From: an uncultured virus (IMG/VR IMGVR_UViG_3300046499_000512)
Lineage: Duplodnaviria; Heunggongvirae; Uroviricota; Caudoviricetes
Virus record (IMG/VR): IMGVR_UViG_3300046499_000512
Length of the DNA: 64,000 bases
Reading direction: 5' to 3' (one strand)
Notes under the pieces: generated by a model
Databases searched by the model: none
Told to the model about the DNA's origin: nothing
The model's input: the letters and a program-made list of their open reading frames with translations, nothing else
Shown: positions 19,527 through 63,590 of the stretch, in pieces
Numbering within the stretch: the first letter of the stretch is position 1
Layout: every line of letters starts with the position of its first letter
Made by a program: the position numbers and the translations under genes

Positions 19527-19545
19527 AGTCCGTCAGCCTCTCGAA

Positions 19546-35200: not shown

Positions 35201-35233
35201 CTACAAGTCGACATCATGTGCTAGGGTAGATAC

Positions 35234-35620
35234 ATGACTGAAGACGAGTACACCGAGCTGATCAAGGACCGCAACCAGGAACCCCGCGTCTACGTCAGCG
35301 ACTTCGACGGCCACGACCGCACCCTCCTGTACGGCTACACCCGCGACCGGACCTCCTTTCACGTCTACCTGTGGGAAGGCCAGATCTGGCGGGTGGAGTA
35401 CCACGCGACGTCTCTGCAACTGCTGTTCCACGCAGTGGCCGACAGCTTCCGGGCCGTGGACCTGATCCCGGACAGGCGGGTTTACCCGGAGGCGACGGAC
35501 TTTCAGATGGCCCAGCGTCTCCAGGCCCTCGGCGTTCAGGTCCCCTACAAGCCGTTCGACGTGGAGCGGTGGGAGTACTACCAGAAGGCGCTGCCCTTCG
35601 TGGGGAAGCGCGTCGGCTAG
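35234..35620 (+). CDS. Hypothetical protein, leaderless
   Basis: DRTLLYGYT..R..FHVY, P.RRVYPEA.DF; ATG at the motif +1. Confidence 0.75.
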   Translation: MTEDEYTELIKDRNQEPRVYVSDFDGHDRTLLYGYTRDRTSFHVYLWEGQIWRVEYHATSLQLLFHAVADSFRAVDLIPDRRVYPEATDFQMAQRLQALGVQVPYKPFDVERWEYYQKALPFVGKRVG

Positions 35621-42692: not shown

Positions 42693-42775
42693 GGACTGGC
42701 AGGCGAAAGGGCGGGGAGTCTTCGGGCTTCCCGCCCTTTTGTGATAGGGTAGATATACCTAGTGAAGGAGATCGC

Positions 42776-43993
42776 ATGTCCACCCACCCCACCCCCCAGA
42801 CCATCGCCGGGGTCCGGCACGAGATGGTCGACTGGTTTCGCACCTACGCCCCCCGGATCTGGCCCCTTCAGCACCTGGGCGGGTCGAAATTCGTTGCCCC
42901 TCCGAGCCTCCCTCCGATCCGCGCGAAGGTGGCGGGCTACGAGTTCGTCCCCGAAGCCGGATCCGCCTTCCACATCCCCGACGCGTCCACCGAGCGGCAG
43001 TTCGTCCGACTCGCGGAGTACTACGCGGAGACCTTCGAGCGGGCCAAGACGTACTACATCGGCCCCGACCTGAGTCACCTGGCGCTGCGTACCGAGATGG
43101 ACCACTACCGGCTCACGCTGGACATGCTCCCCTCCCCCACTGGGTTCCTTATCTGGGCGCTGCCCGTCGGTGCCGCTGAGCACTTCATCCCCCGGCACTC
43201 CTGGGTGGACATGCGGGGCAACGTCACCGAGATCACGGACCCCGACGAGATCCCCGACGAGACCCCCCTGAGCCCGTTCGGGGACGTCGACTCCCCCGTC
43301 ATCGGGTGCTCTTGGCGCTACGATCCCGACGACCACTCGGTCTGGGTCGTCTTCTTCACCCGAAATGACGGCATCCTGGACAAGCTCTCCCAGGGCATGA
43401 GCGCGGAGGACGTCGCACAGGCCCGGGTGATGGGTGGGCCGATCTCCTTCGAGCGGGAGCAGGGCCTTCCACTGGATGTGACGCTCAAGTGGTTCGAGTC
43501 CGAGGAAGAGGACCGGATCATGCCCACCGCGTTCTCCGACCCCGCCAAACTGCCGCCCCACCTGCGGACCACGGCGATGGAGGCGAATGCGGCGGTACTG
43601 CCGTCCCTGACGCAGATGACGCGGGCGCTGGTGGCCACGTTCATGCTGATGAAGTGGAAGATCGCCACCCGGGAGGAGGTCGCCCCGCCGCCGTACATGG
43701 CCCGGGAGATCGCCAAGAGGACCGGACAGACGAAGGGCGAAGTGAAGGCCGCGAACAAGACGGTCTTCGTGCGGCTGGGCCAGCCCTTGAAGCACCGGAA
43801 GCCCACCGAGCGCAGCGGGGCCCGGCGCTGGACACGACGCGCGATCGTCGGCCCGTACATCCGTACCCGGCAGTACATCCCGGCGCACGACACGTTCGAC
43901 TACACGCCGCGCTTGATCGAGCCGTACGTGGCCGGACCGGAGGGAGCGCCGTTCTCGGACGCGGCGGCCAACAAGGTGTTTCTGCTGGACTGA
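42776..43993 (+). CDS. Conserved actinophage protein, distant AcrVA2/FinQ-like paralog 3
   Basis: YYIGPDL..L..DMLPSP.GF..W; V.VRL; R.IVG...R..Q..IEPYVAGPEGAPF; AAGGAG plus ATG at 42776; motif at 42741. Confidence 0.55.
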   Translation: MSTHPTPQTIAGVRHEMVDWFRTYAPRIWPLQHLGGSKFVAPPSLPPIRAKVAGYEFVPEAGSAFHIPDASTERQFVRLAEYYAETFERAKTYYIGPDLSHLALRTEMDHYRLTLDMLPSPTGFLIWALPVGAAEHFIPRHSWVDMRGNVTEITDPDEIPDETPLSPFGDVDSPVIGCSWRYDPDDHSVWVVFFTRNDGILDKLSQGMSAEDVAQARVMGGPISFEREQGLPLDVTLKWFESEEEDRIMPTAFSDPAKLPPHLRTTAMEANAAVLPSLTQMTRALVATFMLMKWKIATREEVAPPPYMAREIAKRTGQTKGEVKAANKTVFVRLGQPLKHRKPTERSGARRWTRRAIVGPYIRTRQYIPAHDTFDYTPRLIEPYVAGPEGAPFSDAAANKVFLLD

Positions 43994-44069
43994 TGGGAAC
44001 ACGGGGGCGGACAGCGTGCGACTGTCCGCCCTTTCTGCTAGGGTAGATACACCCAACCAAGGAGGACGG

Positions 44070-44264
44070 ATGAGCCTGCACGACAAGATGCGTTGCAAGG
44101 GCTGCAACCACCCGAGGTACACGCACAACGGCAGCCACAAGAAGGGCCGCCGGACGATGTGTCAGCAGCAGGTGGGCGAGAGTCACCTGGACAAGTGCAC
44201 GTGCCAGGAGTTCCAGGAGCCGGAGATGGCCAACACCGGGTTACTCCAGGGCAAGCAGGCGTAG
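44070..44264 (+). CDS. Small Cys/His Zn-binding protein
   Basis: C.GC.H...H..C..C.C..F; AAGGAGG RBS; motif at 44036. Confidence 0.65.
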   Translation: MSLHDKMRCKGCNHPRYTHNGSHKKGRRTMCQQQVGESHLDKCTCQEFQEPEMANTGLLQGKQA

Positions 44265-44344
44265 CGGGCAAAGGGCGGAGGGCTTCCACAGCCTCCGCCC
44301 TTTGTGCTAGGGTAGATACATCACCTTCCGACGTTAGGAACCCC

Positions 44345-44662
44345 ATGAGCCTGGACACGCTCGACATCTCCGGCCTGGACAAGGCCACCCTGCTCGCCGC
44401 CCTCTGGAACAACGCCACCGCCCCGCCTGCCTGGTTCAAGCACTCCGGCCCCACGCCGTCCTTCCTGAGCAAGACCGAAGCCGCCCAGATCCTGGCCACG
44501 ATGGGCTACGACTTCGACTACCTGAAGGGCCGGATCCTCAAGCTGAACCTGTCCGCCGACGAATTCCACTTCTGGTTGTACGACCGGGACAACGGCTCCG
44601 GCATGGCCAAGCGCGTCGTGGACAACCTGCGAGCAGGGGGCCGGGAGACCGACCGCGTCTGA
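44345..44662 (+). CDS. Conserved phage hypothetical protein
   Basis: DISGLDKA.LLAAL.N..FDYL.GR..K..L..YDRDNG.G.A; motif at 44303. Confidence 0.75.
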   Translation: MSLDTLDISGLDKATLLAALWNNATAPPAWFKHSGPTPSFLSKTEAAQILATMGYDFDYLKGRILKLNLSADEFHFWLYDRDNGSGMAKRVVDNLRAGGRETDRV

Positions 44663-44743
44663 GACGGGCAGAAAAAGGGCGGAAAGTCTTCGGACTCTCC
44701 GCCCTTTGTGCTAGGGTAGATATATCAACTTACGGAGGACGCG

Positions 44744-50760: not shown

Positions 50761-50791
50761 GAAAGCCCCTGCCACTGCGGCAGGGGCTTTC

Positions 50792-51837: not shown

Positions 51838-52289
51838 TCCGACCTCTCCACTCTCTCCACGTGCGTCACGGCCACCTTCGCCAACTCAGCCAAAGCGGGA
51901 TGCTCCTCGGCCAACTCCTCCAAAGCGGCCATGAGTCTGAACCGGAACTGAACCACCAGATCGAACGGGGCGGGCGGCAGTTCCACGACCACCCTGTACT
52001 CCTCCAGGCTCACGCCGGGCCCTCCTTCGGCGCGACCGGCGGCCACTCGTCCACGATCACCAGATCCGCCGACGGGCCTCGCCACCCCGGCGGCGGCCCG
52101 GATCCCTCGCCGAACCCATGGAAGGCTTCCAGGAGATGTCTCCGGGCCGACTCCGTCACCACGGGCCCCAGGTTGCCCCTGAGGGACGTCTCGCCCCCCT
52201 CAGGGGCGCCGGGAAGCCCTCCGGGGGCGTACGGGGTGTCGTCGGGATTCTCGGTCATCTCTGTTACTCCGATGTTAGTTACTCGCGGG

Positions 52290-52691
52290 TTAGTTCATTC
52301 CGGGGCAGCCGCAGTCCGGGCAGGTTCTGCACGGCTCGGGGTACAGGGCGAAATTGGCCGCTTCGTCGGCAATCTCCACTGCTCGCCGCACTTCCCGCTC
52401 GTCCAGACCGAAGATCCGCCAGTTCGCGATCAGGTGCAGAGCCGCCTTCACGCCGAACGTTTCCATGGGCCGGTCGGACAACTGATAGTCACCCTCCCAG
52501 ACCTGCCAATGCACTTGGCGACGGTTCGCCGGGTCCAGGACCACGCGGGTGGTGTACTTGCCGGACTCGCTCTCCCAGTCCCAGACGGGAAGGCCGTCCA
52601 CGATGTCGGGTTCCAGGATCCAGCCGCCGTCCGTCACGAGGATGGACGTGGGCCAGTCGGTCTGTTCGATGAACTCGTTCAAGCTGCTCAC
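52290..52691 (-). CDS. Hypothetical protein
   Basis: GTGA-coupled operon member; C-terminal CPDCGC. Confidence 0.6.
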   Translation of the reverse strand: MSSLNEFIEQTDWPTSILVTDGGWILEPDIVDGLPVWDWESESGKYTTRVVLDPANRRQVHWQVWEGDYQLSDRPMETFGVKAALHLIANWRIFGLDEREVRRAVEIADEAANFALYPEPCRTCPDCGCPGMN

Positions 52692-52890
52692 TGGGTCTTC
52701 TCCACTTCTACGCCATGGGCGTGTACGACCTGGTAATCAACGTGCACCCAGGCGCCGTCGACCTTGACTCGGATCTCGCGGAGCTGACCGCTGATCTGGG
52801 CGTCGATGTCGGTGATGGCGGCATCAACCCCTTCCGGGCTCGGGTCGGAGGTCTCGATCTCCATGGAGAACGTCAGGCGGACCGCCTGCT

Positions 52891-53247
52891 TCACGGGGTC
52901 TCCTTGATGCTCACGGGGGCGGGGGTGGCGACGTGCGGGGCTTCAACGCTCTCGATCTGGGCGACGAGTGCAAGGACCCACGTCGGGGTGTTCTCCTCCG
53001 ACAGCCAGAAGTGCTCCTTGCCATGGACCACCCCGGGGGTCTCGTCGGCCTTCAGCTTGGGGCCGGTGACGGTGAGGTGGCGGTCAACCTTCAGGCGGGG
53101 TACGCCGCCGAGGCCTCGCCCCGGGAAGACGCGGGCGGAGAAGTCGGCGGCGATCATGACGGCGCCGTTGCGCAGAAGGATCCTCGGTCCGTCTTTGATC
53201 TTGCCGGTCACGGTGTACGAGACGGCGATTTCGAAGGTGGCTTCCAT
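52891..53247 (-). CDS. Hypothetical protein
   Basis: GAGG RBS; operon context. Confidence 0.6.
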   Translation of the reverse strand: MEATFEIAVSYTVTGKIKDGPRILLRNGAVMIAADFSARVFPGRGLGGVPRLKVDRHLTVTGPKLKADETPGVVHGKEHFWLSEENTPTWVLALVAQIESVEAPHVATPAPVSIKETP

Positions 53248-53256
53248 GGGGGCCTC

Positions 53257-53592
53257 TCAGTCCTTGTTGCAGTCGTAGCAGGAGCACCAGGCAGCATCGA
53301 CGTGCTGATCAGGCACCAGGCCCGCCGTGGCCATCGCGATGTTCGCCATGTTCAGGTCGAGGCCCGCGTTCCTGAAGTGCTTGATGTTCTCCTGCACTTC
53401 GCCGCGCGCCGTCACGAGGAACCACGGCTCTTGTTCGCGCAGGAGGTGTTCGCCGTGAAAGACCCGCCAGAACGTCTGTCCGTTTTTCAGCCAGTCGATC
53501 TGATGACGCACGCCGTGCTGGCCGTTCCACTCCCAGCGATAGCCACCGCCGTCGAGCTTCTCGGCCGTTTTCAGGGTCTGCTTGTGCGCCAT
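53257..53592 (-). CDS. Hypothetical protein (C-terminal CSCYDC)
   Basis: TAATG coupling; operon under the motif at 53746. Confidence 0.6.
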   Translation of the reverse strand: MAHKQTLKTAEKLDGGGYRWEWNGQHGVRHQIDWLKNGQTFWRVFHGEHLLREQEPWFLVTARGEVQENIKHFRNAGLDLNMANIAMATAGLVPDQHVDAAWCSCYDCNKD

Positions 53593-53834
53593 TAGAAGAC
53601 CACCCGAACGACCAGGTACGTGACAAGGGCCGCGAAGAGGCCGAAGCCGACCGCGAGTGCCACGTACTTCCAGTTGGTCAGAATGTCCTTGATCAGATAG
53701 CGAGTCACGTCGTCCACGGCGAGTCTCCTTGAGTAGGTGTCTCTTGATTTATCTACCCTAGCACACTGCGCGCAGGGGAACAACCAGCACAGCAAAAAGC
53801 CCCCGCCGGGAAGACGGGGGCCCCTGCCGGAACG

Positions 53835-54035
53835 TCAGCCCTGCATCAGGTTCCGCTTGACGTGATCACCAGCTCGGGCCACCAGCTCTTCGTAGGAGAA
53901 GCCCAGGTCGGACCAGCCAGCCGCCGCCGCGAACTGTGCCGCAACGCGCCGCTTGCCCTGGGGCATCATGTCGGTCATGGTCTCCACGAAAACCAGGTGG
54001 ACGGCAATCTTGTTGATCTTCGGCATGTCGTACAT
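53835..54035 (-). CDS. Hypothetical protein
   Basis: GGGAG RBS; motif at 54063. Confidence 0.65.
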   Translation of the reverse strand: MYDMPKINKIAVHLVFVETMTDMMPQGKRRVAAQFAAAAGWSDLGFSYEELVARAGDHVKRNLMQG

Positions 54036-54126
54036 GAGGACTCCCCTGGGTTGGTGTGTCTTGATGTATCTACCCTAGCATATATGAAAGAAGGGATGCA
54101 ACCCGACAGGGCTACATCCCTTCTCG

Positions 54127-54477
54127 CTAGCGACGGCCGAAGAACCACACCCGGCGGCCCTGTTCCCGAAGATCAGGCGCCTTCGGAGGCTGCGGCAGCG
54201 CGTGGCACTCCCGGCCGTAGTACCGCAGCCCTGTCCCCGGGAGAACCCAGGGTCGCGGGTGGGTACCTACCGGCCCGGGGTCATACGCCATCTCCCGGCC
54301 CTCGTACGGGGCCATGGAGCAGACGACGACCAGACCGGCGTCCCGGGCCCAGCGCAGCATCTTGGTGTGCTGAGGACCCCGGTTGTAGCAGAACTGGAAA
54401 CCTCCGGAGCAGTACTCCCCGCCGGACGTGTAGACGGGGACCTTGCAGGAGGGGCAGCGATAGGGTGTGTCGCTCAT
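54127..54477 (-). CDS. Hypothetical Cys-containing protein
   Basis: GAGGAG RBS; motif at 54500. Confidence 0.65.
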   Translation of the reverse strand: MSDTPYRCPSCKVPVYTSGGEYCSGGFQFCYNRGPQHTKMLRWARDAGLVVVCSMAPYEGREMAYDPGPVGTHPRPWVLPGTGLRYYGRECHALPQPPKAPDLREQGRRVWFFGRR

Positions 54478-55263
54478 GAGTCGTTCTCCTCGGTGTCTCG
54501 ATATATCTACCCTAGCATATGGACCCTGGAAACAGAAGAGAGCCCCACCCTCGGCCGTGAGTTCCTAGGCCCAACCGAGAGGGGACTCTCTCCTGCGGTA
54601 CACCGTGGAGCCACCAGACTAGCCCGTCATCGGCTCCACCAGATCCGGCCTGAACTGGACGAACTCCTCCACCAGTTCATCCCCCTCACCGTTGATCTCC
54701 GAGATCCGCCCCGACCCGAACGGGACCAGGATCTCGAACGGCTTCGACTCATCCAGCCGAACCAACAGGCCCACCGTCGTGATCATCACCGACGGGTAGA
54801 GGACAAGCTCCGCCCGATCGGCAGACCAGACCATCGCAGACAGCATCAATTCCCCTTCTGTGCGTCCAGGATGTCCCGGACCTCGCGGATCGGCGTACGG
54901 AACCGCATCGCCACCATCATCAACGGCGAGTGATACCAGCCCTTGGCATACCCACGGCGGTACTCCCGGTTCTGGCGAACAGCCTTCCAGTACAGGTACA
55001 TCCGGCGTTCCCGGGTCTGGCTCACACCGCGCTCCCGTCCGGGTACAGGCCCTCGTTGAACCGGTCCCCACCCAGCTCCCAGGCAGCCGCGAAGGCCTCC
55101 CGGACAGCCACCGGAGCCTTCTCCACCCAGCCGGGGTATGCCGGGGCGGTGCGGGCGTGCTCCGGGCCGTACGCGGCCACGAAGTTGGCGTGGTCCCAGC
55201 CACGGTCCAGGCCTATGGCCGTCGCGCGGTCCAGCTCCGAAACGTCGGCGGTGAAGTCGATCA

Positions 55264-55596
55264 TCAGTTCTCCTCGGTGCGGTTGGTGACGGTGATCTTG
55301 TAGGCGGAGGTGCCCTCGGTGGGCTCGAACATCGTGGCGGTGTAGCGCTGCGACAGGCGGCGCTCCATCAGGTGCATCTCCTTGTCGACCAGCTCGCGGC
55401 GTCTCTCCGGCGGCATGTGGGAGGCGTGGGATCCGAGCGTGTAGCGGACCTCGGTCCACCCGTCCTGGTCGTGGACCTCGAAGCCGCTGGTGGTGATGGG
55501 GAAGCCCTTGATGCGGGTGGCCCGGTTCTGGCTCCGGTGGAAACCGCCTCGGGAGAGGAAGGCACTGACGGCGTTCGGCCTGGTGCTGTACGGCAT
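55264..55596 (-). CDS. GF.V..FEP.EG paralog family member
   Basis: GAGGAG plus ATG at 55596; motif at 55625. Confidence 0.7.
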   Translation of the reverse strand: MPYSTRPNAVSAFLSRGGFHRSQNRATRIKGFPITTSGFEVHDQDGWTEVRYTLGSHASHMPPERRRELVDKEMHLMERRLSQRYTATMFEPTEGTSAYKITVTNRTEEN

Positions 55597-55885
55597 GGGG
55601 ACTCTCCTCGGGTTGGTGTGTCGGGATATATCTACCCTAGCACGAGGTGAGGAAGGGGGCAACAGGTCCGGACACGACAAACCCCCTGTGGGGTCAAACC
55701 CGCGCCGGGGCTCGTCCACAAGGGGTTTGTCTCCCTTTGACCGTCGCAAGACGGGCATTCCGCACCTTACACACGAAAGTCCCAAAGACGTCTGTGGGAC
55801 ACGGCAAACCCCCCGGAGGTCGCAGCCACTAGCCTGGCTCGCTCACGGGGGGTTTGCCCTCACTGGAAGGTGAAGCAACACGCTA

Positions 55886-56209
55886 TCAGGGTCCGGCAAG
55901 CCAGCCCGGCGTATAGGCGTGGACCTGAACAGCCGTCTCCAGCCCCGGGAACGACACCCGGCATACCCAGCCCGCCTCCTCGAACGCGTTGTCGAGGTAG
56001 CCGAACAGGGACCGGCTGGCCTCCCTCATGGCCGGGGCGATGGACCGGGCCACCACACACGTGCCGGTGAACGAGAACTGCATGAGTTCCTGATGGGGTG
56101 CCCCGGCAAGGGCCAGAGCGATCAGGGGCGCGGCCTCCCGGATGATCCGGGCGGACTGCTCCGCGCGGAGGGCGGCGAGCTGCTCCTCGGTGAAGGGTTC
56201 GTACGTCAC
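55886..56209 (-). CDS. Hypothetical protein, paralog of 62871-63149
   Basis: LF.YLD..F..AGW..R.S..HAY.PGWL; AGGAG plus GTG. Confidence 0.65.
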   Translation of the reverse strand: MTYEPFTEEQLAALRAEQSARIIREAAPLIALALAGAPHQELMQFSFTGTCVVARSIAPAMREASRSLFGYLDNAFEEAGWVCRVSFPGLETAVQVHAYTPGWLAGP

Positions 56210-56267
56210 GGTGTCTCCTGGGGGTATGAGGAAGCCCCCGGGGCATTCCCGGGGGCCGTGTGAGGGG

Positions 56268-56552
56268 TCAGGCGAGACCGTGGATCTGGTCCAGGGTGAC
56301 GAAGTGCAGGAAGCCCTTGGAGGCGATTCGAGCGCGCGTGATGCCGTCCACGTCGTCGCGGATGTCATCGAGACGGCCCGTGAGGTACTGGCCGTCATAG
56401 GTGAAGGCGACCTTCTTGCCGATGCGCCCCAGGTGGGCCAGCTTGTCGGCGAGGGCGTCCACGGCCGCGCCCTGGTCGATGTCGAAGTCAGAGGCGCCCC
56501 GGTAGAGGCCGATGGCGCGCGTGATGATGTCGATGTCCTGGGGCGTGAACAT
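56268..56552 (-). CDS. Hypothetical protein
   Basis: AAGGAG plus ATG at 56552; motif at 56584. Confidence 0.65.
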   Translation of the reverse strand: MFTPQDIDIITRAIGLYRGASDFDIDQGAAVDALADKLAHLGRIGKKVAFTYDGQYLTGRLDDIRDDVDGITRARIASKGFLHFVTLDQIHGLA

Positions 56553-56748
56553 GGAAGTCTCCTTGAGTCGGTGTCTCCTTGGTGATGTATCTACCCTAAC
56601 ACATAGGGTGTGACTTAGGCAACAGGAAAGCCCCCCGGGCATATCCCAGAGGGCTAAACGCACAAAAAAGCAGAGGCCCACCAGGAAACCCGGTAGGCCT
56701 CGCACCCATCCGCCGCGACGGACAGGGGAATGAGCTACACCCTAGCAA

Positions 56749-57486
56749 TCACCAAGAACACTCCGGGCAGTCCCGGTCACTCTCGCCCCCGGCAACCGCC
56801 AGACACGCGACCGAATGCCCGGTAGGGCTCTCGCCCCCGCCCACCTCCGGTGCATCCCCTTGCAGGCGGCGCAGCGAATCCAGGGCAGCCTGGTCCTCCT
56901 CCGTGAACCCGCCCTCCGACCAGATTTTCTCCTGGGCCGTGTCCAGCGCGAACTTCAGCATCCCGCGCTCCGAGGCCGACAGGACGGACGGCGTATCCGC
57001 CGCCTGCTGGGCATCCGCCACAGGGCAACCCGCCCAGTGCGAATACGACCCGTCGTCCTCCTGGTGAGGCGCCGGATCACACGTGCACGCAGCAGCCTCC
57101 GCCTGATCCTTCGCCCGGCGCTCCACCTGCCCCCGGATGCTCCGGAACGCCGCCAGGGTGATCACGTCGCACTGCTGCGGCGAAAGCGGCAGATCCGCCT
57201 TCCGGCAAGCCCTCCAAGCCGCCAGCACGGCCATCGTCTGCGCATGTTCCCAGGCCGCACCGTGGAGTTCCACGGTGTACCGAGCCAGCCGCTTGAACGG
57301 AGGGGACGTGTCCGTCGTCAGGAACTCCCACGGAATGATCCCGGTGTAGTGCCCCCCATCCGTGGCCTGTTCGACGGACTGTACGAACGCCCCGCGTTCC
57401 CTGGGTTCGATCACGGTGTGCAGTTCCCCGGGGACGCGGGTGTCCTGGACCAAGGTTCCGGCGGGCGGGCAGTCTTCACGCTTCAT
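56749..57486 (-). CDS. Hypothetical protein
   Basis: AGGAG RBS; Cys/His clusters. Confidence 0.6.
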   Translation of the reverse strand: MKREDCPPAGTLVQDTRVPGELHTVIEPRERGAFVQSVEQATDGGHYTGIIPWEFLTTDTSPPFKRLARYTVELHGAAWEHAQTMAVLAAWRACRKADLPLSPQQCDVITLAAFRSIRGQVERRAKDQAEAAACTCDPAPHQEDDGSYSHWAGCPVADAQQAADTPSVLSASERGMLKFALDTAQEKIWSEGGFTEEDQAALDSLRRLQGDAPEVGGGESPTGHSVACLAVAGGESDRDCPECSW

Positions 57487-57506
57487 CAGATAGCTCCTAA
57501 AAGGGA

Positions 57507-58046
57507 TTAGAGGGTGATAACGCGGCCGGTCTCGGGAGTGAGGGAAACCAGCTTCACCAGGCCCTTGCGCTCCAGAGCCATCACCGTGTTCGCGTGCAGA
57601 CCCCCCGAGAACATCGGCGTCATCTCCGCCGACGTCAAAGGGCGCGGCGTGTTCAGAGAGGCCGTGATCCGCCGGTAGCGGTAGTTCTCCCCGCCCTCCG
57701 CGATCTGCCGGTACGCCCGCTGCTGGGAGTCCGGGAGCGCCTTGATCGGGTCGTCCTGGACCGTCAGGTACCAGCCGTAGCCGATACCCTCAGGCATCGG
57801 GCACAGCGTCACGTCGAACCGGGTCTCCAGGGTGCGCAGCAAGAACCCGAGCTGCATCTTCACCTCATCCCGGATGCGGTCCTTCGGCCAGTCCACCACG
57901 GTGTAGTCAGGGACCCATCGCACGGATACCTGGCCGTCCACGGTTGCTTGCGTGACCCGGAAACCCTCATGGATGCCCTGGCCCCGAGGGTGCCCCTTGC
58001 GGGACAGGTAGGCGGACACGGTGTGTGCGGTCAAGGGCTTGGTCAT
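57507..58046 (-). CDS. GF.V paralog family member with C-terminal wHTH-like segment
   Basis: VSAYLSRKG..GFRV; TVMALERKGLV. Confidence 0.65.
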   Translation of the reverse strand: MTKPLTAHTVSAYLSRKGHPRGQGIHEGFRVTQATVDGQVSVRWVPDYTVVDWPKDRIRDEVKMQLGFLLRTLETRFDVTLCPMPEGIGYGWYLTVQDDPIKALPDSQQRAYRQIAEGGENYRYRRITASLNTPRPLTSAEMTPMFSGGLHANTVMALERKGLVKLVSLTPETGRVITL

Positions 58047-58109
58047 CGCAGTCTCCTAGGGAGTCGGGGTGTGAGGGGCGCAGCCGGTGTGGCTGCGCCC
58101 CTGGGGCGG

Positions 58110-58505
58110 CTAGTTGTCCTGACGGCTCCAGGCAGCCCGGTCGGATCGCGTCTCCATGCGCTCGAAGTAGTCGTCTTCGGTCTCGCCGGGAAGCTGGTAC
58201 TCGGCGTCCTCGGAGGTGACCTTGAGCCAGAAGTCGGCGCCCTCGGTCGGCTCGAACAGGGTGACTTTCCAGCCCTTGCGGGAGAGGGCTTTCTCCATGA
58301 GGCGCATCTGCTCGCAGACGGTCTTCCTGTTTTCGCGCTCGGGGGCCCCGACATAGCCCCCGAGGACGTAGACGATCTTGGAGTCGCCGTTGTCCTCCCG
58401 GGTGACCTTGAAGCCGCCGTAGACAAGGGCAGGGCGCTCGGGGTTCTTGTAGTGAGGGGCAAATCCGGCGTTCATCAGGGCCTGCTCGGTGTGCTTCGGG
58501 TCCAT
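58110..58505 (-). CDS. GF.V..FEP.EG paralog family member
   Basis: YGGFKV..LSRKGWKVTLFEPTEG..FWLKV; motif at 58533. Confidence 0.7.
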   Translation of the reverse strand: MDPKHTEQALMNAGFAPHYKNPERPALVYGGFKVTREDNGDSKIVYVLGGYVGAPERENRKTVCEQMRLMEKALSRKGWKVTLFEPTEGADFWLKVTSEDAEYQLPGETEDDYFERMETRSDRAAWSRQDN

Positions 58506-58604
58506 GGTGACTCTCCTTGGTCGGTGTGTCTTGATGTATCTACCCTAGCACATACAAAGAGGGGGCACAACCAGACGGCTGCACCCCCTCGATAAACCCC
58601 GGAC

Positions 58605-58937
58605 CTAGAACTCGGTGCCCTTGTCGGCCGCGAGGAACGCCTCCCGGTCCAGCTCCGCCGCACCCAGCTTGATCCCGCGCTCCCGCATGAACCCCTTGTG
58701 CAGATACACCGCGTGCCGGTGATCCACCCCGCGTACCCGGAGACGGCCGCTGTACCGGTCGGTGAGGAAGATCCGCAGGCGGGTGGGACTGGTCTTGACG
58801 ACCTTGGTGACTATGCCGTCCACATCGCCGCTGTCCTTCCAGGTCTTCCGGAAAGTCGGAGCATGGAAGAAGGCAGGCATTCCGGGGCGCAGCACGTAGG
58901 CGGCGGTTCGGACGTGGGTGTATTCGGAGTCGGGCAC
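58605..58937 (-). CDS. Hypothetical protein
   Basis: AGGAG RBS; motif at 58966. Confidence 0.65.
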   Translation of the reverse strand: MPDSEYTHVRTAAYVLRPGMPAFFHAPTFRKTWKDSGDVDGIVTKVVKTSPTRLRIFLTDRYSGRLRVRGVDHRHAVYLHKGFMRERGIKLGAAELDREAFLAADKGTEF

Positions 58938-59000
58938 GGGAGTCTCCTGGGGTGGTGTCTCACTGGATGTATCTACCCTAGCAGACTCCCGTATGGGGTG

Positions 59001-59804
59001 CTACTCCCCCAGAGCCTTAGCCCGCTCCAGGATGGCGTCCCACGGCGCACCCGTGCCCAGACCCAGAGCCCGCGACAGAGCAAGACGGCGGGCCTCCGCA
59101 TCCGCCTCCACCCGCTGCTTCTCACGATTGAGACGGCTGTTCGTCTCCCGAGCCGCGTCATAACCGTCATCCGGCGTAACCCGGACCGTAGCCCCGTCCT
59201 CGCAGCGCTCCATGCCGTGCCACATCTCGCCGTCACAGTCCGGCACCCACTCCGCCGTGACCGGAACCGGCTCCATGTACACCAGGTCCGCCCAGTCGCC
59301 CCAGGAATCCCCCGGAGGCAGCCCGCACGCGGCGTGCACCAGGCTGGGGCCGCCCTCCTCGATCCCCAGGGTGTACCGGTTGTCCCCGGGCGGACAGAGG
59401 CAGCCCGACGGGCCGTAACCCTCAAGGTCCGGGCTCTCCCCCTCGTTGACGGCGCAGAACGTGATCGTGATGGGGTCGGTGCCGGTGAGAAGCCACTCCA
59501 CGGTGACCCCGGTAGCCTCCGCGATCTGGGCAAGGTCGGTGCTGCTGGGCCGCTCGTAGCCCAGGATGATGCGGCGCAGGTGGTCGGAGTCCATGCCGGT
59601 GGCGGCGAACCGGGGAGCCCCGACCTCGACGTTGGCCCAGACGTGGCGGATGCGTTCGAGGATGGCGGCCCGGACGTCCACAGGGGGCTTCTCAGGGGTT
59701 GCGGGGGTGAGGGGTTCGTCGCAGGCGCAGGGTTCGCCGAAGAGGCGGGCCGGGCACCGGTTGGTGCGGTGTACGGGGTGACCGCAGGCTTCGCAGACGT
59801 CCAT
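59001..59804 (-). CDS. Protein containing an XRE-type HTH and Cys clusters
   Basis: FAATGMDSDHLRRIILG..RPS..DL..IA.A.GV.VEWLLTG; motif at 59832. Confidence 0.65.
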   Translation of the reverse strand: MDVCEACGHPVHRTNRCPARLFGEPCACDEPLTPATPEKPPVDVRAAILERIRHVWANVEVGAPRFAATGMDSDHLRRIILGYERPSSTDLAQIAEATGVTVEWLLTGTDPITITFCAVNEGESPDLEGYGPSGCLCPPGDNRYTLGIEEGGPSLVHAACGLPPGDSWGDWADLVYMEPVPVTAEWVPDCDGEMWHGMERCEDGATVRVTPDDGYDAARETNSRLNREKQRVEADAEARRLALSRALGLGTGAPWDAILERAKALGE

Positions 59805-59905
59805 AGGGGCGCTCCAGGGGTATCGGGGTGTGGTGTATCTACCCTATCGCAGAAAGGCCCCTGAGGGAGTCCCCAGGGGCCTTGCAGGAGGCTACGTGGA
59901 AGGCT

Positions 59906-60208
59906 TTACACCCGTTCGATCTTCACTCCGCCACGGGGGCCGTTCTTGACCAGGGCGGAGGGGTAGTCGAAGGGGCATCCGGAGGTCTTGAACTCCAGGG
60001 CCTCCTCCCAGTCGATCTCCGTGTAGGGGTAGAGGCTCCCGGTGCAGCCGTACTCTCCGTTGGTCTGGAGGTCCTGGTAGAAGCCCGTGGCGTGGCCGTA
60101 GAGGATGAGGGCGGCCTTGCAGGATTCGAGGTTGGTGTGGCGCTCCAGGGTGAAGCCGCCGAGGGGGTTGTGCAGGTACATGATCCAACGGAAGTTGCTG
60201 GGGGCCAT
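59906..60208 (-). CDS. Hypothetical protein
   Basis: C-terminal YP......GPRGGV..E; motif at 60236. Confidence 0.7.
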   Translation of the reverse strand: MAPSNFRWIMYLHNPLGGFTLERHTNLESCKAALILYGHATGFYQDLQTNGEYGCTGSLYPYTEIDWEEALEFKTSGCPFDYPSALVKNGPRGGVKIERV

Positions 60209-60306
60209 GGTGAGTCTCCTTGTTCGGTGTCTCTTGATATATCTACCCTAGCATGTATGGAAAAGGGCCGCAACCCTGTAGGTGCGGCCCTTCCGGTGCA
60301 GTCAGG

Positions 60307-60804
60307 TCAGACGATCTTCAGCCAGAACCCGGTACCCGTCTCCGGCTCGAACACGGTCACCTTGTGGCCCTTCCGGGAGAGCAGCCACTCCATCCGGTGG
60401 ATCCGTACCCCCACGATGTCCCGGTGGGTGTCCTCGGGGGGCTGAGGCACGACGTTGCCGATGGTGTATTCGACCAGGGTGTCTCCGTTGACCTGGGGGA
60501 TGATCCGGAAGCCCCCGTAGGTTCGGCCGCTGATGGTGACGGCGGGGAGGTATCCGGCGTTCCGGAGGTCGTTGTCGATCTTCTCGGAGGTCTCGGTGAC
60601 CAGGGAGACGTCCTTGTAGGAGACCTTGGTGTAGTCGCCGGTGTACTGGCCGTCCGCGTCGATGAAGCCGACCTTGATCGTTCCGTAGGCGTTGTTGTAG
60701 CCCATGGCGATTCCGATGGTTCCGGCGGCCCAGCCGTTGGTGGGGCTGATCTGGACACGGGCCCGGGTGGTGACGGCGTAGTCGATTTGGGCGGAGGTGA
60801 GCAT
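60307..60804 (-). CDS. GF.V..FEP paralog family member with extra N-terminal domain
   Basis: YGGFRI..LSRKGHKVTVFEPETGTGFWLKI; motif at 60832. Confidence 0.7.
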   Translation of the reverse strand: MLTSAQIDYAVTTRARVQISPTNGWAAGTIGIAMGYNNAYGTIKVGFIDADGQYTGDYTKVSYKDVSLVTETSEKIDNDLRNAGYLPAVTISGRTYGGFRIIPQVNGDTLVEYTIGNVVPQPPEDTHRDIVGVRIHRMEWLLSRKGHKVTVFEPETGTGFWLKIV

Positions 60805-60907
60805 CTGGAGTCTCCTTGTTCGGTGTCTCTTGATGTATCTACCCTAGCATGCACAGAGAAGGGGCGCAACCCCTAAGGATCACGCCCCCTGCCCTGCTGC
60901 GCCCTGA

Positions 60908-61276
60908 TCAGAAGCCCGGGGCCTCCAGGACGATCTCCGCCGTCTTGAACGCCTCCCATCGGGCCAGGGCGGCGAACTTGACGGTCTGGCGCTGCTCCGG
61001 GGTGGGCCACAGGGTGAGGGTTCCGACAAGGCCCTGGTTCACGAGGGCGACCATGTGGACGTGGATCACGGCGTTGCCCGGGAGGGTGTTGGTGTGGATC
61101 TCGCCGGTTTGGTAGTGCTTGATCGTCAGGGTGATCTTGTTCTCGCCCGTCTTGACGGCGTCCTGGACGGTGCCGCCCGTGAGGATCCACTTCCCGTCGA
61201 CCTTGACGCTGTAGCTGACGGGGAGGCCCTTGATGGCTCCTGCGGCCGGGATCTCCATGAACTTCTTGAGCGCCAT
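60908..61276 (-). CDS. Hypothetical protein
   Basis: AGGAG plus ATG at 61276; motif at 61311. Confidence 0.65.
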   Translation of the reverse strand: MALKKFMEIPAAGAIKGLPVSYSVKVDGKWILTGGTVQDAVKTGENKITLTIKHYQTGEIHTNTLPGNAVIHVHMVALVNQGLVGTLTLWPTPEQRQTVKFAALARWEAFKTAEIVLEAPGF

Positions 61277-61386
61277 CGGAATCTCCTGGGTGTTGGTGTC
61301 TCCGTGAGGTGATGTATCTACCCTAGCACATAGGAAAAGGGGGCTGCAAGCCGAAGCCCACAACCCCCCTCAGAAACCCCGCCCTA

Positions 61387-61725
61387 TCAGCCCGTCCGCA
61401 TCACCCAGAACGGCATCCGGTCCCGCAGCACCTTTACCCCCGGGAGCGCACACACCCCGTCCTGAGGGGCCAGGTGATCCATCACCACCTCCAGGGGGAT
61501 GAACGGCCGTGGCCCCTTGCAGGCGTGCAAGAGCAGGTCCGGGGGGCAGCCGCAGTCCGGGGAGCAGTTCAGCATCTTGTCCACGGTGACAGCCGTACCC
61601 ACCGGTACAGACTCCCGCCAGGCTTCGATATGGGCGAGAAGCCGGGCATCCAGGTCGGGGTAGAGGGCGTAGAGGGCTTCCCGGGTGACGGTGATACCGC
61701 CGGGCATCGGGGCAGTCATGATCAT
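61387..61725 (-). CDS. Hypothetical protein
   Basis: AAGGAG RBS; ATGA coupling to the upstream gene. Confidence 0.55.
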   Translation of the reverse strand: MIMTAPMPGGITVTREALYALYPDLDARLLAHIEAWRESVPVGTAVTVDKMLNCSPDCGCPPDLLLHACKGPRPFIPLEVVMDHLAPQDGVCALPGVKVLRDRMPFWVMRTG

Positions 61726-62810
61726 TCTCCTTCGGGTGTAACAGGGGTGAGGTCCGACTCCCAGCACCAGCCCTTGTCGCCGTTCTCGAACTCCACGTAG
61801 GCGTCCCAGGCGTCCCGGCCGCCGTTGTAGCGGCTCTTCTTGATCACGCCGTAGGAGTCGTCGTAACGAACCCGGGCGGTGAGGGGATAGATCGGCTGGT
61901 TGCCTCCCACGGTGAGGGGCGAAAGGGTCTGGGGGATGACGGGTGCCACGGTGTCCCGGGGGAGGCCGCAGATGCCGCAGTGCGTCCAGGGCTTGCCGTC
62001 CTTGCCTACGGCGGGCTGGTCTTCTCCGTCCAGGGCGGTTACCCAGGTGTGGGTGTGAGGGGCGGTCTGGGGGCGGCTGGGGTCGCGGAGGGGTTCGGGG
62101 AAGCCCGGGATGATGTCGGCCCGGGTGAGGGCGTCGGGGATGTCCAGGTCGCGGTGCCACAGGACGATCACGTCAACATCCCCGTCCTTGAGGGCCCGGC
62201 GGATGAGCTGGTAGGCCACGGGCGGGTGTTCGGCGTCCTCGGGGTCGTGGGCGGTGATGACGGCGTCCACGGTGTAGCCGCATTCGAGGGCGTAGAGGCG
62301 TAGGCGGGTGCGGTGGTAGAGGTCGGATCCGTCCAGGTCGATCTGGGGGTGTCCGACGTAGATGACGGCGTGCAGCGGGGTGTCTGTCACGGGGAGGGTC
62401 TCCTTGAGGGCGGTCTGGGTGAGGGCCTTGGCCTGGGCGGGGGTGTATCCGGCCTGGAGTGCTCCGGAGGCGAGCTGTTCGGCGCGGTCTTCTCGGAGGA
62501 TCTGGGCGATGTGGTCGGCCTGGGGGCTCGGGATGGAGGCGGTGGGGCGGCTGGAGACGGCCTCGGTTACCGGCTGGTAGTACTTGCAGAAACGGTCGGC
62601 ACGCAGGGCCCGGGGTGTTCCGGGGCGGCCCTTGGTGATGTCCGCCTGGGTGCGTTCGAGGTAGCGCACGATCTGGTGTGAGGGGCGGTTGTCGTAGGCG
62701 GCCTCGGGGGTGATCTGTTCGATCCGGGCGGTGGCGGCGGTGCCGTCGAGGGCTTCGTACAGGGCGCCTTCGCGGAGGTCTTCGGGGCGCAGCGGGGGTG
62801 TGTCGGGCAT
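61722..62810 (-). CDS. Multidomain protein with a degenerate serine-resolvase-like domain
   Basis: AVIYVG..LRLYA..GY.V..D..P..L..G.VDVIV...RD; AGGAG RBS. Confidence 0.55.
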   Translation of the reverse strand: MPDTPPLRPEDLREGALYEALDGTAATARIEQITPEAAYDNRPSHQIVRYLERTQADITKGRPGTPRALRADRFCKYYQPVTEAVSSRPTASIPSPQADHIAQILREDRAEQLASGALQAGYTPAQAKALTQTALKETLPVTDTPLHAVIYVGHPQIDLDGSDLYHRTRLRLYALECGYTVDAVITAHDPEDAEHPPVAYQLIRRALKDGDVDVIVLWHRDLDIPDALTRADIIPGFPEPLRDPSRPQTAPHTHTWVTALDGEDQPAVGKDGKPWTHCGICGLPRDTVAPVIPQTLSPLTVGGNQPIYPLTARVRYDDSYGVIKKSRYNGGRDAWDAYVEFENGDKGWCWESDLTPVTPEGE

Positions 62811-62870
62811 GGTGGTGTCTCCTGGTGTGGGCGGGCCCTCCAGGGTGTTCTGGAGGGCCCGGGGCGGGGT

Positions 62871-63149: not shown

Positions 63150-63269
63150 GGGGACTCTCCTGGGTTCGGTGTGTCTGTTGTATCTACCCTAGCACGTGGA
63201 GTAGCGGGCGTGCAAGGCGCAGCATGAAGCCCCCTCCAGGGCGGGCTGGAGGGGGCTCGGGGCTGGGTG

Positions 63270-63515: not shown

Positions 63516-63590
63516 CGGGATTCTCCTTGGTGGTGTTCCCTGAGCTGATGTATCTACCCTAGCACATGGCGTAGCACGGGAACAACCCCC

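What the first reader, a model, noticed from the sequence alone, without database searches (positions are those of the whole stretch)
53716..61370. A whole terminator/-35/-10/leader/RBS joint is duplicated as a unit, resembling a mobile regulatory cassette
Seen (minus strand): the 60236 and 60832 copies share ATGCTAGGGTAGATA(T/C)ATCAAGAGACACCGAACAAGGAGACTC almost exactly in front of unrelated genes. A leader box ACACC-n3-6-(A/G)GGAG recurs at 53746, 54063, 58533, 25658, 41683, 46989, 15913, 16426 and 23092. The -35 lies in the 3' arm of the upstream terminator hairpin: TTGCGG-17-TAGGGT at 60236 and TTGCAT-18-TAGGGT at 54063, and similarly at 51259, 58533, 60832 and 61311. Established: T4-type phages have PeSL (promoter-early-stem-loop) elements proposed to shuffle gene modules. 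Inference: these ~80-bp joints are recombination handles that excise, insert or swap single-gene cassettes, an integron-like logic without attC sites. I do not know of this being described in actinophages.
Basis: partly seen in the sequence, partly recalled or inferred. Interest (0 to 1): 0.78.

Follow-up and report, generated by a model that had tools for sequence, protein, structure and literature searches.

The report
Repeated promoter-terminator joints in an actinophage
An uncultured soil phage of high-GC bacteria places one and the same host-type promoter, often fused to a terminator hairpin and a stereotyped leader, in front of about half of its small non-structural genes, and these repeats now and then recombine with each other to drop or add a gene, much as already known from T4-type phages.

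Summary
GCTAGGGTAGATA (up to 2 mismatches) occurs 57 times in the 64-kb window against 0.44 expected, always pointing along the genes. It is a sigma-70/HrdB-type promoter: TTG -35 in 29 of 57 sites, an extended -10 TGCTAGGGT, an invariant AGATA, and a start at the A of cATC. Five sites carry ATG exactly at that A.

Four metagenomic relatives, one of them 125 kb and 97% complete, carry 17-49 copies each. Copies are nearly absent from the virion genes.

The "recombination handle" reading is partly supported. Two further "two joints versus one joint" differences exist against relatives.

Such events are a minority: 1 of 10 structural differences between near-identical strains and 2 of 21 clean indels. 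Synteny breaks are as frequent at gene boundaries without a joint. Nothing points to integron-like site-specific recombination.

This is a PeSL-like design in a new phage lineage, with an unexplained leader box tied to the ribosome site.

The parts
60805..60907 (-). Joint A. It has a terminator-like hairpin whose 3' arm carries TTGCGC (-35), a 17-nt spacer, TGCTAGGGT, AGATAC, a predicted start A at 60834, and a 27-nt leader with ACACC-N6-AAGGAG. It precedes gene 60307-60804.
60209..60306 (-). Joint B, a near-identical copy of joint A (TTGCGG-17-TAGGGT; predicted start A at 60238). It precedes the unrelated gene 59906-60208.
60212..60807 (-). The 596-bp cassette (gene 60307-60804 plus one joint) that is absent from the ~97.6% identical strain in run X3. 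The junction lies inside the 27-nt repeat 60212-60238 / 60808-60834.
   Evidence: table 5: joint 60211>60808, side 255, both 27, depth 22; table 2: X3 bin 60009-60675 = 7.0 against about 20-22 beside it
61277..61386 (-). Joint with motif 61315-61327 (TTGCAG-18-TAGGGT in the hairpin 3' arm) and a leader box. It precedes gene 60908-61276.
59805..59905 (-). Joint with the weaker motif GATAGGGTAGATA (59836-59848) behind a hairpin. In G001 the same hairpin and ribosome site are present, but the 26 nt holding the motif are missing.
58938..59000 (-). Joint with motif 58970-58982 and a leader box but no strong hairpin. It precedes gene 58605-58937.
58506..58604 (-). Joint with motif 58537-58549 (TTGTGC-17-TAGGGT in the hairpin 3' arm, then a T-run). 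It shares a 28-nt exact run with the joint at 54067.
56553..56748 (-). Long joint with motif 56588-56600 behind two terminator-like hairpins. It precedes gene 56268-56552.
55597..55885 (-). Long non-coding stretch with two similar long hairpins (fold z = -4.6), followed by motif 55629-55641 and a leader box. It precedes gene 55264-55596.
54478..54618 (-). Joint with motif 54504-54516. It precedes gene 54127-54477.
54036..54126 (-). Joint with motif 54067-54079 (TTGCAT-18-TAGGGT in the hairpin 3' arm) and a leader box. It precedes gene 53835-54035.
53718..53834 (-). Joint with motif 53750-53762 and a leader box. It precedes gene 53592-53717.
42693..44743 (+). A second array of three cassettes bounded by four similar joints (motifs at 42743, 44037, 44306 and 44710; hairpins of the form AAAGGGCGG...CCGCCCTTTGT). 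G001 lacks gene 44345-44662 and G003 lacks all three genes. Each has a single chimeric joint instead.
35220..35236 (+). Example of a leaderless unit: the ATG of gene 35234-35620 begins exactly at the predicted start A, 7 nt after TAGGGT. The same holds at 17518(-), 30251(+), 35684(+) and 38195(+).

Best explanation
The joint is the standard transcription-unit punctuation of a family of roughly 125-kb metagenomic actinophages. The host is probably Streptomyces or a relative; that is inferred.

A full joint has four parts. First, a GC-rich terminator-like hairpin that ends the previous unit. Second, a host sigma-70 (HrdB)-type promoter: its TTG -35 often sits in the hairpin's 3' arm, its 17-18-nt spacer holds the short T-run, and its extended -10 is TGCTAGGGT. 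Third, an invariant AT-rich AGATA(C) stretch and a start at the A of cATC. Fourth, either no leader at all or an A/C-rich leader of about 30 nt that carries ACACC about 6 nt before AAGGAG.

Host RNA polymerase is inferred to fire all these promoters on the non-structural arms, so that one to three small genes are expressed and insulated per unit.

Because the joints are dispersed direct repeats with 13-28 nt of exact identity, they occasionally recombine with each other. The route could be RecA, a phage single-strand annealing protein or replication slippage. The result removes or adds a whole cassette and leaves one chimeric, working joint. This is a side route. Most gene gain, loss and replacement in this phage group happens at gene boundaries regardless of joints.

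Shown: the sequence anatomy, copy number, conservation, distribution, and three joint-to-joint differences between natural genomes. Inferred: promoter and terminator activity, the sigma factor, timing, and the recombination enzyme.
For: Copy number and anatomy:
- 57 sites against 0.44 expected.
- The position profile shows T at -21 in 72% of sites, TG-C-TAGGGT, an invariant AGATA and then cATC.
- TTG sits at spacer 17 or 18 in 28 of 57 sites and at 19 in one more.
- Five genes start with ATG exactly 7 nt after TAGGGT, which fixes the start point and the -10 register.
- These features match Streptomyces transcription-start data in passages read from PMC6742748: -10 TANNNT, -35 TGAC, A at +1 and T at +2, ribosome site RRGGAG, about 20% leaderless mRNAs with AUG.

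Selection on the motif:
- Orthologues keep the promoter in 32 of 36, 26 of 28, 23 of 29 and 30 of 33 cases.
- The 13-mer stays 94-96% identical while the 30 nt upstream are 43-66% identical.

Distribution:
- Relatives carry 49, 49, 43 and 17 sites.
- In G002 only 3 of 49 sites lie in 50-100 kb, which holds terminase, portal, major head, tape-measure and tail genes plus helicase, exonuclease and a Sak4-like annealing protein.

Recombination:
- The X3 strain joins 60211 to 60808 across the 27-nt repeat.
- Chimeric single joints stand in G001 and G003 where the window has two.
- Breaks are not enriched at joints.
Against: - No transcript data exist; no run holding this DNA is on record as RNA.
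- An E. coli-consensus promoter scan finds 0 sites in 50-64 kb, because TAGGGT matches TATAAT at only 3 of 6 positions. The sigma-70 assignment therefore rests on the actinobacterial consensus.
- The strict terminator scan finds only 13 sites against 6.1 +/- 3.0 in shuffles, so many hairpins lack a classical T-run.
- Invariance of AGATA goes beyond what sigma-70 contacts are known to need (my own knowledge). A phage factor may take part.
- The X3 evidence comes from k-mer-assembled contigs, not reads.
- Gene calls are from my own simple caller.
- Genome pairs share ancestry, so counts across pairs are not independent.
Confidence: 0.72

Rival explanations
1. The joints are the main, selected recombination handles of a cassette-exchange system of the PeSL type. 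Cassettes excise as circles and re-enter other joints or other phages, and this drives the shuffling of the small-gene arms.
For: - Three joint-to-joint differences, one of them between ~97.6% identical strains.
- Shuffled order of single-gene units between the window and G001 in 54-64 kb.
- Sub-families of near-identical joints flank cassettes. Exact runs of 26-28 nt occur in only three pairs, and two of these pairs bound an observed indel.
- A relative encodes an exonuclease and a Sak4-like annealing protein.
Against: - Break rates at joint and non-joint boundaries do not differ.
- Homology ends per boundary are 0.34-0.74 for joints and 0.27-0.55 for non-joints.
- 22 of 36 G002/G003 gaps have no motif.
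- 19 of 21 clean indels are not joint-to-joint.
- 9 of 10 differences between near-identical strains are not joint-to-joint.
- Where the upstream neighbour has changed, the terminator part stays with the downstream gene in 22 of 98 cases. It stays with the upstream gene in only 5 of 40 cases where the downstream neighbour changed. Crossovers inside the motif would give the opposite pattern.
- Circles could not be tested.
Confidence: 0.15
2. The motif is a phage-specific promoter class. A phage-encoded factor reads the invariant GGTAGATA part, alone or with host polymerase. One candidate is the small protein 16980-17516, which has a sigma region-4/LuxR-type helix-turn-helix. On this view the motif marks a middle class of genes rather than plain host-recognised early genes.
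For: - AGATA is invariant in 57 of 57 sites at three positions and in 55 of 57 at the other two.
- 28 of 57 sites lack a TTG -35.
- Protein 16980-17516 matches GerE (E 2.5e-07), matches Sigma70_r4_2 weakly, and matches a PHROG named sigma factor (E 2.6e-05). It is itself expressed from a leaderless copy of the motif.
Against: - The geometry (-35, spacer, extended -10, start 7 nt after the -10) is fully that of a housekeeping promoter.
- No Sigma70_r2 match above cut-off exists in four relatives.
- The search for a phage-type RNA polymerase found nothing, but its control also rang nowhere, so it is uninformative.
- If the factor gene itself depends on the motif, something else must read the motif first.
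Confidence: 0.1
3. Integron-like site-specific exchange. The tyrosine recombinase at 33402-34442 (or the resolvase-like gene beside it) acts on the joints as attachment sites.
For: Both genes exist (Phage_integrase E 1.3e-10; Resolvase E 2.6e-07).
Against: - The three junctions lie anywhere within 18-31 nt of plain sequence identity. In one case this is the transcribed leader, in the others the motif region. There is no fixed crossover point and no inverted-repeat core.
- Most indels have no joint at all.
- The gene pair looks like an ordinary integration module.
Confidence: 0.03

Closest known systems
PeSLs (promoter-early stem-loops) in the hyperplastic regions of T4-type phages RB49/phi1 (Arbiol et al. 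2010, PMC2839356: abstract and sections 13 and 16 read; Comeau et al. 2014, PMC4122927: search listing only)
   Same: - About 50 copies per genome of a composite sigma-70-like promoter plus stem-loop.
- The stem-loop overlaps the -35 or lies in the spacer.
- The element ends in a Shine-Dalgarno site and the start codon.
- It is concentrated among small orphan genes and rare in virion genes.
- There are natural cases of two elements around a gene against one element.
   Different: - No sequence relation, and a different phage lineage and host phylum.
- A GC-rich context without the AT-rich upstream part.
- A much tighter core: 13 nt nearly invariant, plus an extended -10.
- Leaderless variants and a leader box anchored to the ribosome site.
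- Differential genes are not enriched next to joints here (14 of 36 gaps against about 36-39% of boundaries). In RB49/phi1, 10 of 14 differential ORFans touch a PeSL.
- Promoter and terminator activity and mini-circles are untested.
Start-associated sequences (SAS/ESAS) of Cluster K mycobacteriophages and Cluster EF Microbacterium phages, and the intergenic repeats of Clusters EC, EG and EI (PMC7302621: passages read; PMC3203893: listing only)
   Same: Unusually conserved motifs repeated 5-19 times in front of start codons in actinophages. They include the ribosome-site position, and their function is unknown.
   Different: Different sequences. SAS sits at the ribosome site itself. Here the conserved core is a promoter 20-37 nt upstream, and the ACACC box is 4-7 nt before the ribosome site. 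Copy number here is several-fold higher.
Predicted SigA-like promoters, some leaderless, in Cluster O mycobacteriophages (PMC4351075: passages read)
   Same: Host-type promoters with the start at the first base of the start codon, and several operons in the non-structural arm.
   Different: 8-9 promoters per genome there, not a single near-invariant sequence family. Their 17-bp palindromic repeat is unrelated.
Intergenic repeats of halovirus HF2 that carry promoters (PMC8707807: abstract start in a search listing only)
   Same: A virus-wide intergenic repeat family that turned out to be promoters.
   Different: An archaeal virus with AT-rich motifs. No terminator or leader module is described in what I saw.

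Membership tests
PeSL-type promoter-terminator cassette (by function, not by descent) | A strong host sigma-70-like early promoter | tested here: inconclusive
   The sequence fits the Streptomyces consensus, and leaderless ATGs fix the start point. The E. coli-type scan finds 0 sites. Activity was not assayed.
PeSL-type promoter-terminator cassette (by function, not by descent) | A stem-loop beside or overlapping the promoter that can stop upstream transcription | tested here: met
   In 24 of 57 sites the TTG -35 overlaps the 3' arm of a predicted upstream hairpin. A strict hairpin-plus-T-run scan gives 13 sites against 6.1 +/- 3.0 in 50-64 kb. Termination itself is untested.
PeSL-type promoter-terminator cassette (by function, not by descent) | Many copies, concentrated in variable small-gene regions and rare in core virion genes | tested here: met
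   57 sites in the window. In G002, 3 of 49 sites lie in 50-100 kb, which holds the virion and replication genes.
PeSL-type promoter-terminator cassette (by function, not by descent) | Differential genes preferentially adjoin the element | tested here: not met
   Odds ratios are 0.43-1.79 and none is significant. 14 of 36 G002/G003 gaps touch a motif, while about 36% of boundaries carry one.
PeSL-type promoter-terminator cassette (by function, not by descent) | Recombination between two elements deletes or inserts the gene between them | tested here: met
   Three cases: 60212-60807 against run X3, 44323-44695 against G001, and 42758-44706 against G003.
PeSL-type promoter-terminator cassette (by function, not by descent) | Excised mini-circles | not testable with these tools
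   The runs are kept only as contigs, and no raw reads of a lysate are available.
Integron / attC cassette system | A dedicated site-specific recombinase acting at structured attachment sites with a fixed crossover point | tested here: not met
   Junctions fall within 18-31 nt of plain direct identity at different places in the joint. No inverted-repeat core is seen in the position profile.
Single-subunit (T7-type) phage RNA polymerase promoters | A phage-encoded RNA polymerase and a promoter without -35/-10 geometry | tested here: inconclusive
   No PF00940 match in four relatives, but the control genomes also gave none. The -35/-10/start geometry argues against membership.
Start-associated sequences (Cluster K type) | A 13-bp conserved motif at the ribosome-site position directly before start codons | tested here: not met
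   The conserved core lies 20-37 nt before the start codon, or directly on it in leaderless units. The ribosome site itself is an ordinary AAGGAG.

The most novel reading that the evidence does not exclude
Two things may be true together. First, sub-families of near-identical joints work as portable expression sockets, through which orphan-gene cassettes leave and enter phage genomes. Examples are the 42743-44710 array and the 60240/60836 pair. That would make a real cassette-exchange route in actinophages. Second, the ACACC box is a separate phage-specific signal on the 5' ends of primary transcripts, for example a target of a translational or RNA-stability regulator. The box sits a fixed ~6 nt before the ribosome site. 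It is almost confined to promoter-proximal genes: 25 of 51 against 3 of 74 in the window, with the same pattern in four relatives.
Probability: 0.2. Interest if true: 0.7.

Novelty: new variant of a known kind. Interest (0 to 1): 0.5.

Why it matters
PeSL-type cassettes are described in print only for T4-type phages of Gram-negative hosts. That is as far as my searches reach: searches returned only the two T4 papers, and the motif string itself returned one unrelated plant paper.

This case shows the same design arising independently in a high-GC siphovirus-like lineage. It also gives a measured estimate of how much the repeats contribute to gene flux: about one indel in ten. That tempers the idea that such joints drive mosaicism.

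On the practical side, the 13-18-nt core with an exactly placed start is a compact candidate strong promoter for Streptomyces work. The ACACC leader box is a testable new translation or stability signal.

Tried and rejected
- BLASTN of 53600-61500 against 50,697 phage records found no match, near or distant.
- No whole genome is held for the window.
- The search for related loci with protein 61722-62810 confirmed no relative.
- The metagenome scan with the 17-mer only re-found G001 as two contigs, plus single chance hits.
- The genome scan gave 7 single hits, 3 of them in Streptomyces records and none with more than one copy. No prophage relative was found.
- Rfam at gathering thresholds found only one tRNA.
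- The sigma-factor domain search gave one sub-threshold hit.
- The phage RNA polymerase search is uninformative because its control failed.
- No RNA holder is listed among the sequencing runs.
- Most joints in table 5 have sides of 20-32 letters and depths near 300. I discarded them as contigs of other, more abundant relatives that match only at the repeats. I kept only the joint with side 255.
- Leader similarity could not be used to trace crossovers, because unrelated leaders already score high (null 99th percentile 19-23).
- Leaders are weakly structured (-0.13 kcal/mol per nt against -0.21 at internal starts), but equally so with and without the ACACC box. Low structure therefore does not explain the box.
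- I considered a SigB-type reading of GGGTA and dropped it. The upstream T-rich signal lies 22 nt away, not the 14-16 nt I recall for that class (recalled, not tested).
- I looked up earlier notes of this scan. There were none for this genome or sequence. Several notes on other actinophages describe similar cassette arrays. I used them only as leads.

Full report
**What the window is.** The window is 64 kb with 65% G+C and no N. My own codon-bias gene caller finds 125 mostly small genes.

Pfam and PHROG matches are few. They include a Mu-type portal fragment (1-633), Prim-Pol, TerD, DUF2637, an ArdC/IrrE-like protein, an ADP-ribosylglycohydrolase, a dCMP deaminase, and a tyrosine integrase (33402-34442) next to a resolvase-like gene. 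The 570-aa protein 691-2403 is about 40% identical to terminases of Streptomyces phages.

There is no nucleotide match in 50,697 deposited phage records, and no genome is held for the window. The 26 genes I scanned in 53-64 kb are almost all without family. The exceptions are a helix-turn-helix repressor-like domain in 59001-59804 and two PHROGs of unknown function.

**The observation.** On the minus strand, the sequences at 60240 and 60836 are identical over 15 nt, differ at one position (T/C), and are identical again over 27 nt (ATCAAG...GACTC). The copies lie 596 bp apart. The genes behind them are unrelated (no BLASTP alignment).

They are two members of a very large family. GCTAGGGTAGATA with up to two mismatches occurs 57 times: 34 exact, 15 with one mismatch and 8 with two. 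Shuffles give 0.44 +/- 0.66. Orientation follows the genes: minus in 6-23 kb and 50-64 kb, plus in 23.7-49 kb.

**Anatomy.** I aligned all 57 sites on the motif. The profile shows:
- a weak -35 (T at -21 in 72% of sites);
- T-G-C before TAGGGT (79%, 91% and 75%);
- TAGGGT itself;
- AGATA, with three positions invariant and two at 96%;
- then C-A-T-C (72%, 82%, 68% and 77%).

TTG stands 17 or 18 nt before TAGGGT in 28 sites and 19 nt before it in one. Chance would give a few percent.

In five units (17518, 30251, 35220, 35684 and 38195) the ATG of the gene begins exactly at the A of cATC, 7 nt after TAGGGT. In actinobacteria leaderless mRNAs start at the A of AUG. These five units therefore fix both the start point and the -10 register.

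The features match Streptomyces start-site data in passages I read from PMC6742748: -10 TANNNT, -35 TGAC, enrichment of A at +1 and T at +2, ribosome site RRGGAG, and about 20% leaderless mRNAs that prefer AUG.

Upstream, many sites have a GC-rich hairpin whose loop or 3' arm supplies the TTG and whose T-run fills the spacer. Examples are 51263, 54067, 58537, 60240, 60836 and 61315. In 24 of 57 sites the TTG overlaps the 3' arm of the predicted fold.

A strict hairpin-plus-T-run scan finds 13 terminator-like sites in 50-64 kb against 6.1 +/- 3.0. The same tool's E. coli-type promoter scan finds none, because TAGGGT matches TATAAT at only three positions.

**The leader.** The predicted start lies a median 30 nt before the start codon. 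The leader is A/C-rich (A 31%, C 36%, G 22%, T 11%).

ACACC-N(1-9)-RGGAG precedes 25 of 51 promoter-proximal starts but only 3 of 74 other starts in the window. In the relatives the counts are 22/51 against 4/82, 15/37 against 0/70, 9/12 against 3/30, 17/39 against 1/79, and 9/16 against 3/51.

Over 96 boxes in five genomes, the distance to RGGAG is 4-7 nt in 89 cases (mode 6). The distance to the start point ranges from +6 to +15 in all but two. The box is therefore anchored to the ribosome site, not to the promoter, yet it is nearly confined to first genes.

Leaders are weakly structured, but equally so with and without the box. I cannot tell whether the box is a signal for de-novo initiation or RNA stability at 5' ends, or simply travels with the promoter module.

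**Relatives.** The exact 17-mer is present many times in several IMG/VR contigs. With up to one mismatch:
- G001 (89.5 kb) has 49 sites;
- G002 (124.9 kb, 97% complete by CheckV) has 49;
- G003 (76 kb) has 43;
- G004 (35 kb) has 17.

The window is syntenic with G001 at about 67-88% nucleotide identity.

In G002 only 3 of 49 sites lie between 50 and 100 kb. That stretch holds terminase, portal, major head, tape-measure and tail genes, then a helicase, an exonuclease and a Sak4-like annealing protein.

No sigma-factor domain passes its cut-off in the four relatives. The search for a phage RNA polymerase is uninformative because its control also found nothing.

Orthologous genes keep their promoter in 32 of 36, 26 of 28, 23 of 29 and 30 of 33 cases. 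The 13-mer stays 94-96% identical while the 30 nt upstream are 43-66% identical. The motif is therefore under strong purifying selection and is tied to the downstream gene.

**Test of the recombination-handle idea among diverged relatives.**

- *Adjacency.* I took neighbouring same-strand genes with at least one reciprocal-best orthologue. The adjacency is broken as often without a motif between the genes as with one. For the window against G001 the counts are 27 broken / 17 kept with a joint and 28 / 20 without (OR 1.13, p 0.83). For G002 against G003 they are 16 / 19 against 34 / 24 (OR 0.59). All 14 ordered pairs give ORs of 0.43-1.79 and none is significant.
- *Homology ends.* About 60-88% of BLASTN homology ends fall in the roughly 25% of DNA near gene boundaries. 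Per boundary the rates are 0.34-0.74 for joints and 0.27-0.55 for non-joints.
- *G002 against G003 (80-88% identical).* 22 of 36 gaps in the collinear chain have no motif within 40 bp in either genome, and 14 have one. The one case that looked like two joints against one turned out to have its left end outside a joint.
- *Where the terminator part goes.* Where the upstream neighbour has changed, the terminator-containing segment is still recognisably conserved with the downstream gene in 22 of 98 cases. It is conserved with the upstream gene in 5 of 40 cases where the downstream neighbour changed. In fully syntenic joints the figure is 26 of 49. Crossovers confined to the motif would keep the terminator with the upstream gene.
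- *Close reading of ten junctions in 50-64 kb.* Breaks sit at stop codons, at start codons, upstream of hairpins and, once, as a 26-nt indel that holds just the motif at 59836.

These counts use my own gene calls, and genome pairs share history, so they are not independent samples.

**Evidence that joints do recombine.** Five sequencing runs hold part of 53716-61370. All but one are rhizosphere metagenomes. X1 holds 99% of the sampled words and may be the source.

I laid the contigs of X1-X4 on 44001-64000. Run X3, under another study code, carries a strain about 97-98% identical. Its record 16 shows 39 other letters in 1,687 and 42 in 1,857.

That record is 7,869 nt long at depth 22. It runs from 58525 to 60211 and continues without any extra letter at 60808. 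It skips 596 bp, with 27 letters fitting either side and at least 255 letters on the shorter side.

X3 depth in the bin 60009-60675 is 7.0, against about 20-22 in neighbouring bins. That is what cover of only 60009-60211 would give.

The 27 letters are the shared leader, from the predicted start A to the base before the copy-specific trinucleotides.

A systematic search for clean indels looked for an insertion of 150-6000 bp in one genome against -70 to +15 nt in the other. Across all genome pairs it gave 21 rows: 2 joint-to-joint, 8 with one end near a motif and 11 with none. One insertion is counted twice.

The two joint-to-joint cases lie in a second array of four similar joints at 42743, 44037, 44306 and 44710. 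G001 lacks gene 44345-44662, and G003 lacks all three genes 42776-44662. In both relatives the single joint has the hairpin of the left window joint and the leader and gene of the right one. The two homology blocks overlap by 31 and 18 nt.

Only three joint pairs in the window share exact runs of 26 nt or more: 54067/58537 (28 nt), 60240/60836 (27 nt) and 44306/44710 (26 nt). Two of these three bound an observed indel.

**How often.** Six differences between the window and X3 can be read from the listed tables. The tables are truncated: 23 more joints and 390 more pieces are not shown. The differences are:
- the joint-to-joint deletion;
- gene 62871-63149 with its promoter replaced by 39 nt that form a hairpin like the one downstream;
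- about 260 extra nt at an operon-internal gene boundary (54849);
- about 227 extra nt in the hairpin/ribosome-site spacer at 58048-58070;
- a 535-for-477-nt replacement around joint 56588;
- a 114-for-124-nt replacement inside gene 45641-45928.

G010 and G004 are 95-98% identical and differ by four replacements or insertions. None is joint-to-joint. One is an HNH-endonuclease-like gene in place of a small leaderless gene. G012 and G003 are 99.7% identical over 9 kb with no indel.

Joint-to-joint events are therefore about one in ten structural differences, at both short and long distances.

**Reading.** The joints are first of all expression signals: one host-type promoter, often fused to the preceding terminator, with a stereotyped leader. 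They are used across the non-structural arms of a phage family and kept by selection.

As dispersed direct repeats they are also occasional substrates for recombination that removes or adds whole, still-expressible cassettes. The longest-identity pairs are the ones seen to react. This is the PeSL logic of T4-type phages (PMC2839356, sections 13 and 16 read), met here as a minor route.

The bulk of mosaicism follows gene boundaries with or without a joint. From my own knowledge this is the usual actinophage pattern, attributed to illegitimate recombination followed by selection; I did not look that up.

Nothing supports an integron-like site-specific mechanism or a role for the 33402 integrase.

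**Limits.**
- There is no transcript or activity data.
- The host is inferred.
- The X3 evidence is from k-mer contigs, not reads.
- The inserted X3 sequences could not be seen.
- The direction of each event (loss or gain) is unknown.
- Supplementary figures of the papers cited were not consulted.

Noticed in passing
window 39469-39511: Two copies of the motif face each other 17 nt apart and form a 43-bp near-palindrome between genes 39158-39457 and 39543-40172. The minus-strand copy would fire antisense into the upstream gene. This could be an operator or some other protein-binding site rather than two promoters.
   Followed up: no
window 25641-25671, 41668-41698 and about 45300-45338: Back-to-back divergent motif pairs sit at the points where the direction of transcription switches. 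The two cores are separated by 5 nt.
   Followed up: no
window 55597-55885 (minus strand): A 290-nt non-coding stretch holds two similar long hairpins (CAAACCCC...GGGGTTTG, each followed by CGTGTCC). The fold gives -135.9 kcal/mol, z = -4.6 against shuffles. It may be a small RNA or a double terminator. It has no Rfam match.
   Followed up: partly
window 55264-55596, 58110-58505, 60307-60804 (and, via a shared G001 homologue, 57507-58046): A family of paralogous small proteins, 36-43% identical to one another. From reading, they share a C-terminal ...FEP.EG..FWLK... stretch. No Pfam or PHROG family matches. The cassette missing from the X3 strain is one member.
   Followed up: partly
window 59805-59905 against G001 (offset 53470-53530): The hairpin and ribosome site are conserved, but 26 nt holding just the promoter core are present in the window and absent in G001. 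A promoter can evidently be gained or lost as a small indel.
   Followed up: partly
window 8967-9049 (+): A single tRNA-Leu (anticodon CAA).
   Followed up: no
window 16980-17516 (-): A leaderless gene for a 178-aa protein with an N-terminal LuxR/GerE-type, sigma region-4-like helix-turn-helix. Its G002 counterpart gives a sub-threshold Sigma70_r2 hit. It is a candidate phage transcription factor.
   Followed up: partly
L091 (Streptomyces sp. contig), L094 (Streptomyces plasmid, position 120-136), L092: The exact 17-mer occurs once each in three Streptomyces records. In two of them it is followed by a similar short hairpin. Each of these genomes has a single copy. This hints that the sequence works as a promoter in Streptomyces mobile elements.
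   Followed up: partly
relative G002, 59554-65382 (L097:7554-13382): A 1942-aa protein in the head-gene region has a C-terminal match to an ADP-ribosyltransferase family.
   Followed up: no
relative G010 7234-7722 against G004 19387-19650: Between two 97-98% identical contigs, a gene with an HNH-nuclease-like motif replaces a small gene that sits behind a degenerate leaderless copy of the promoter.
   Followed up: partly
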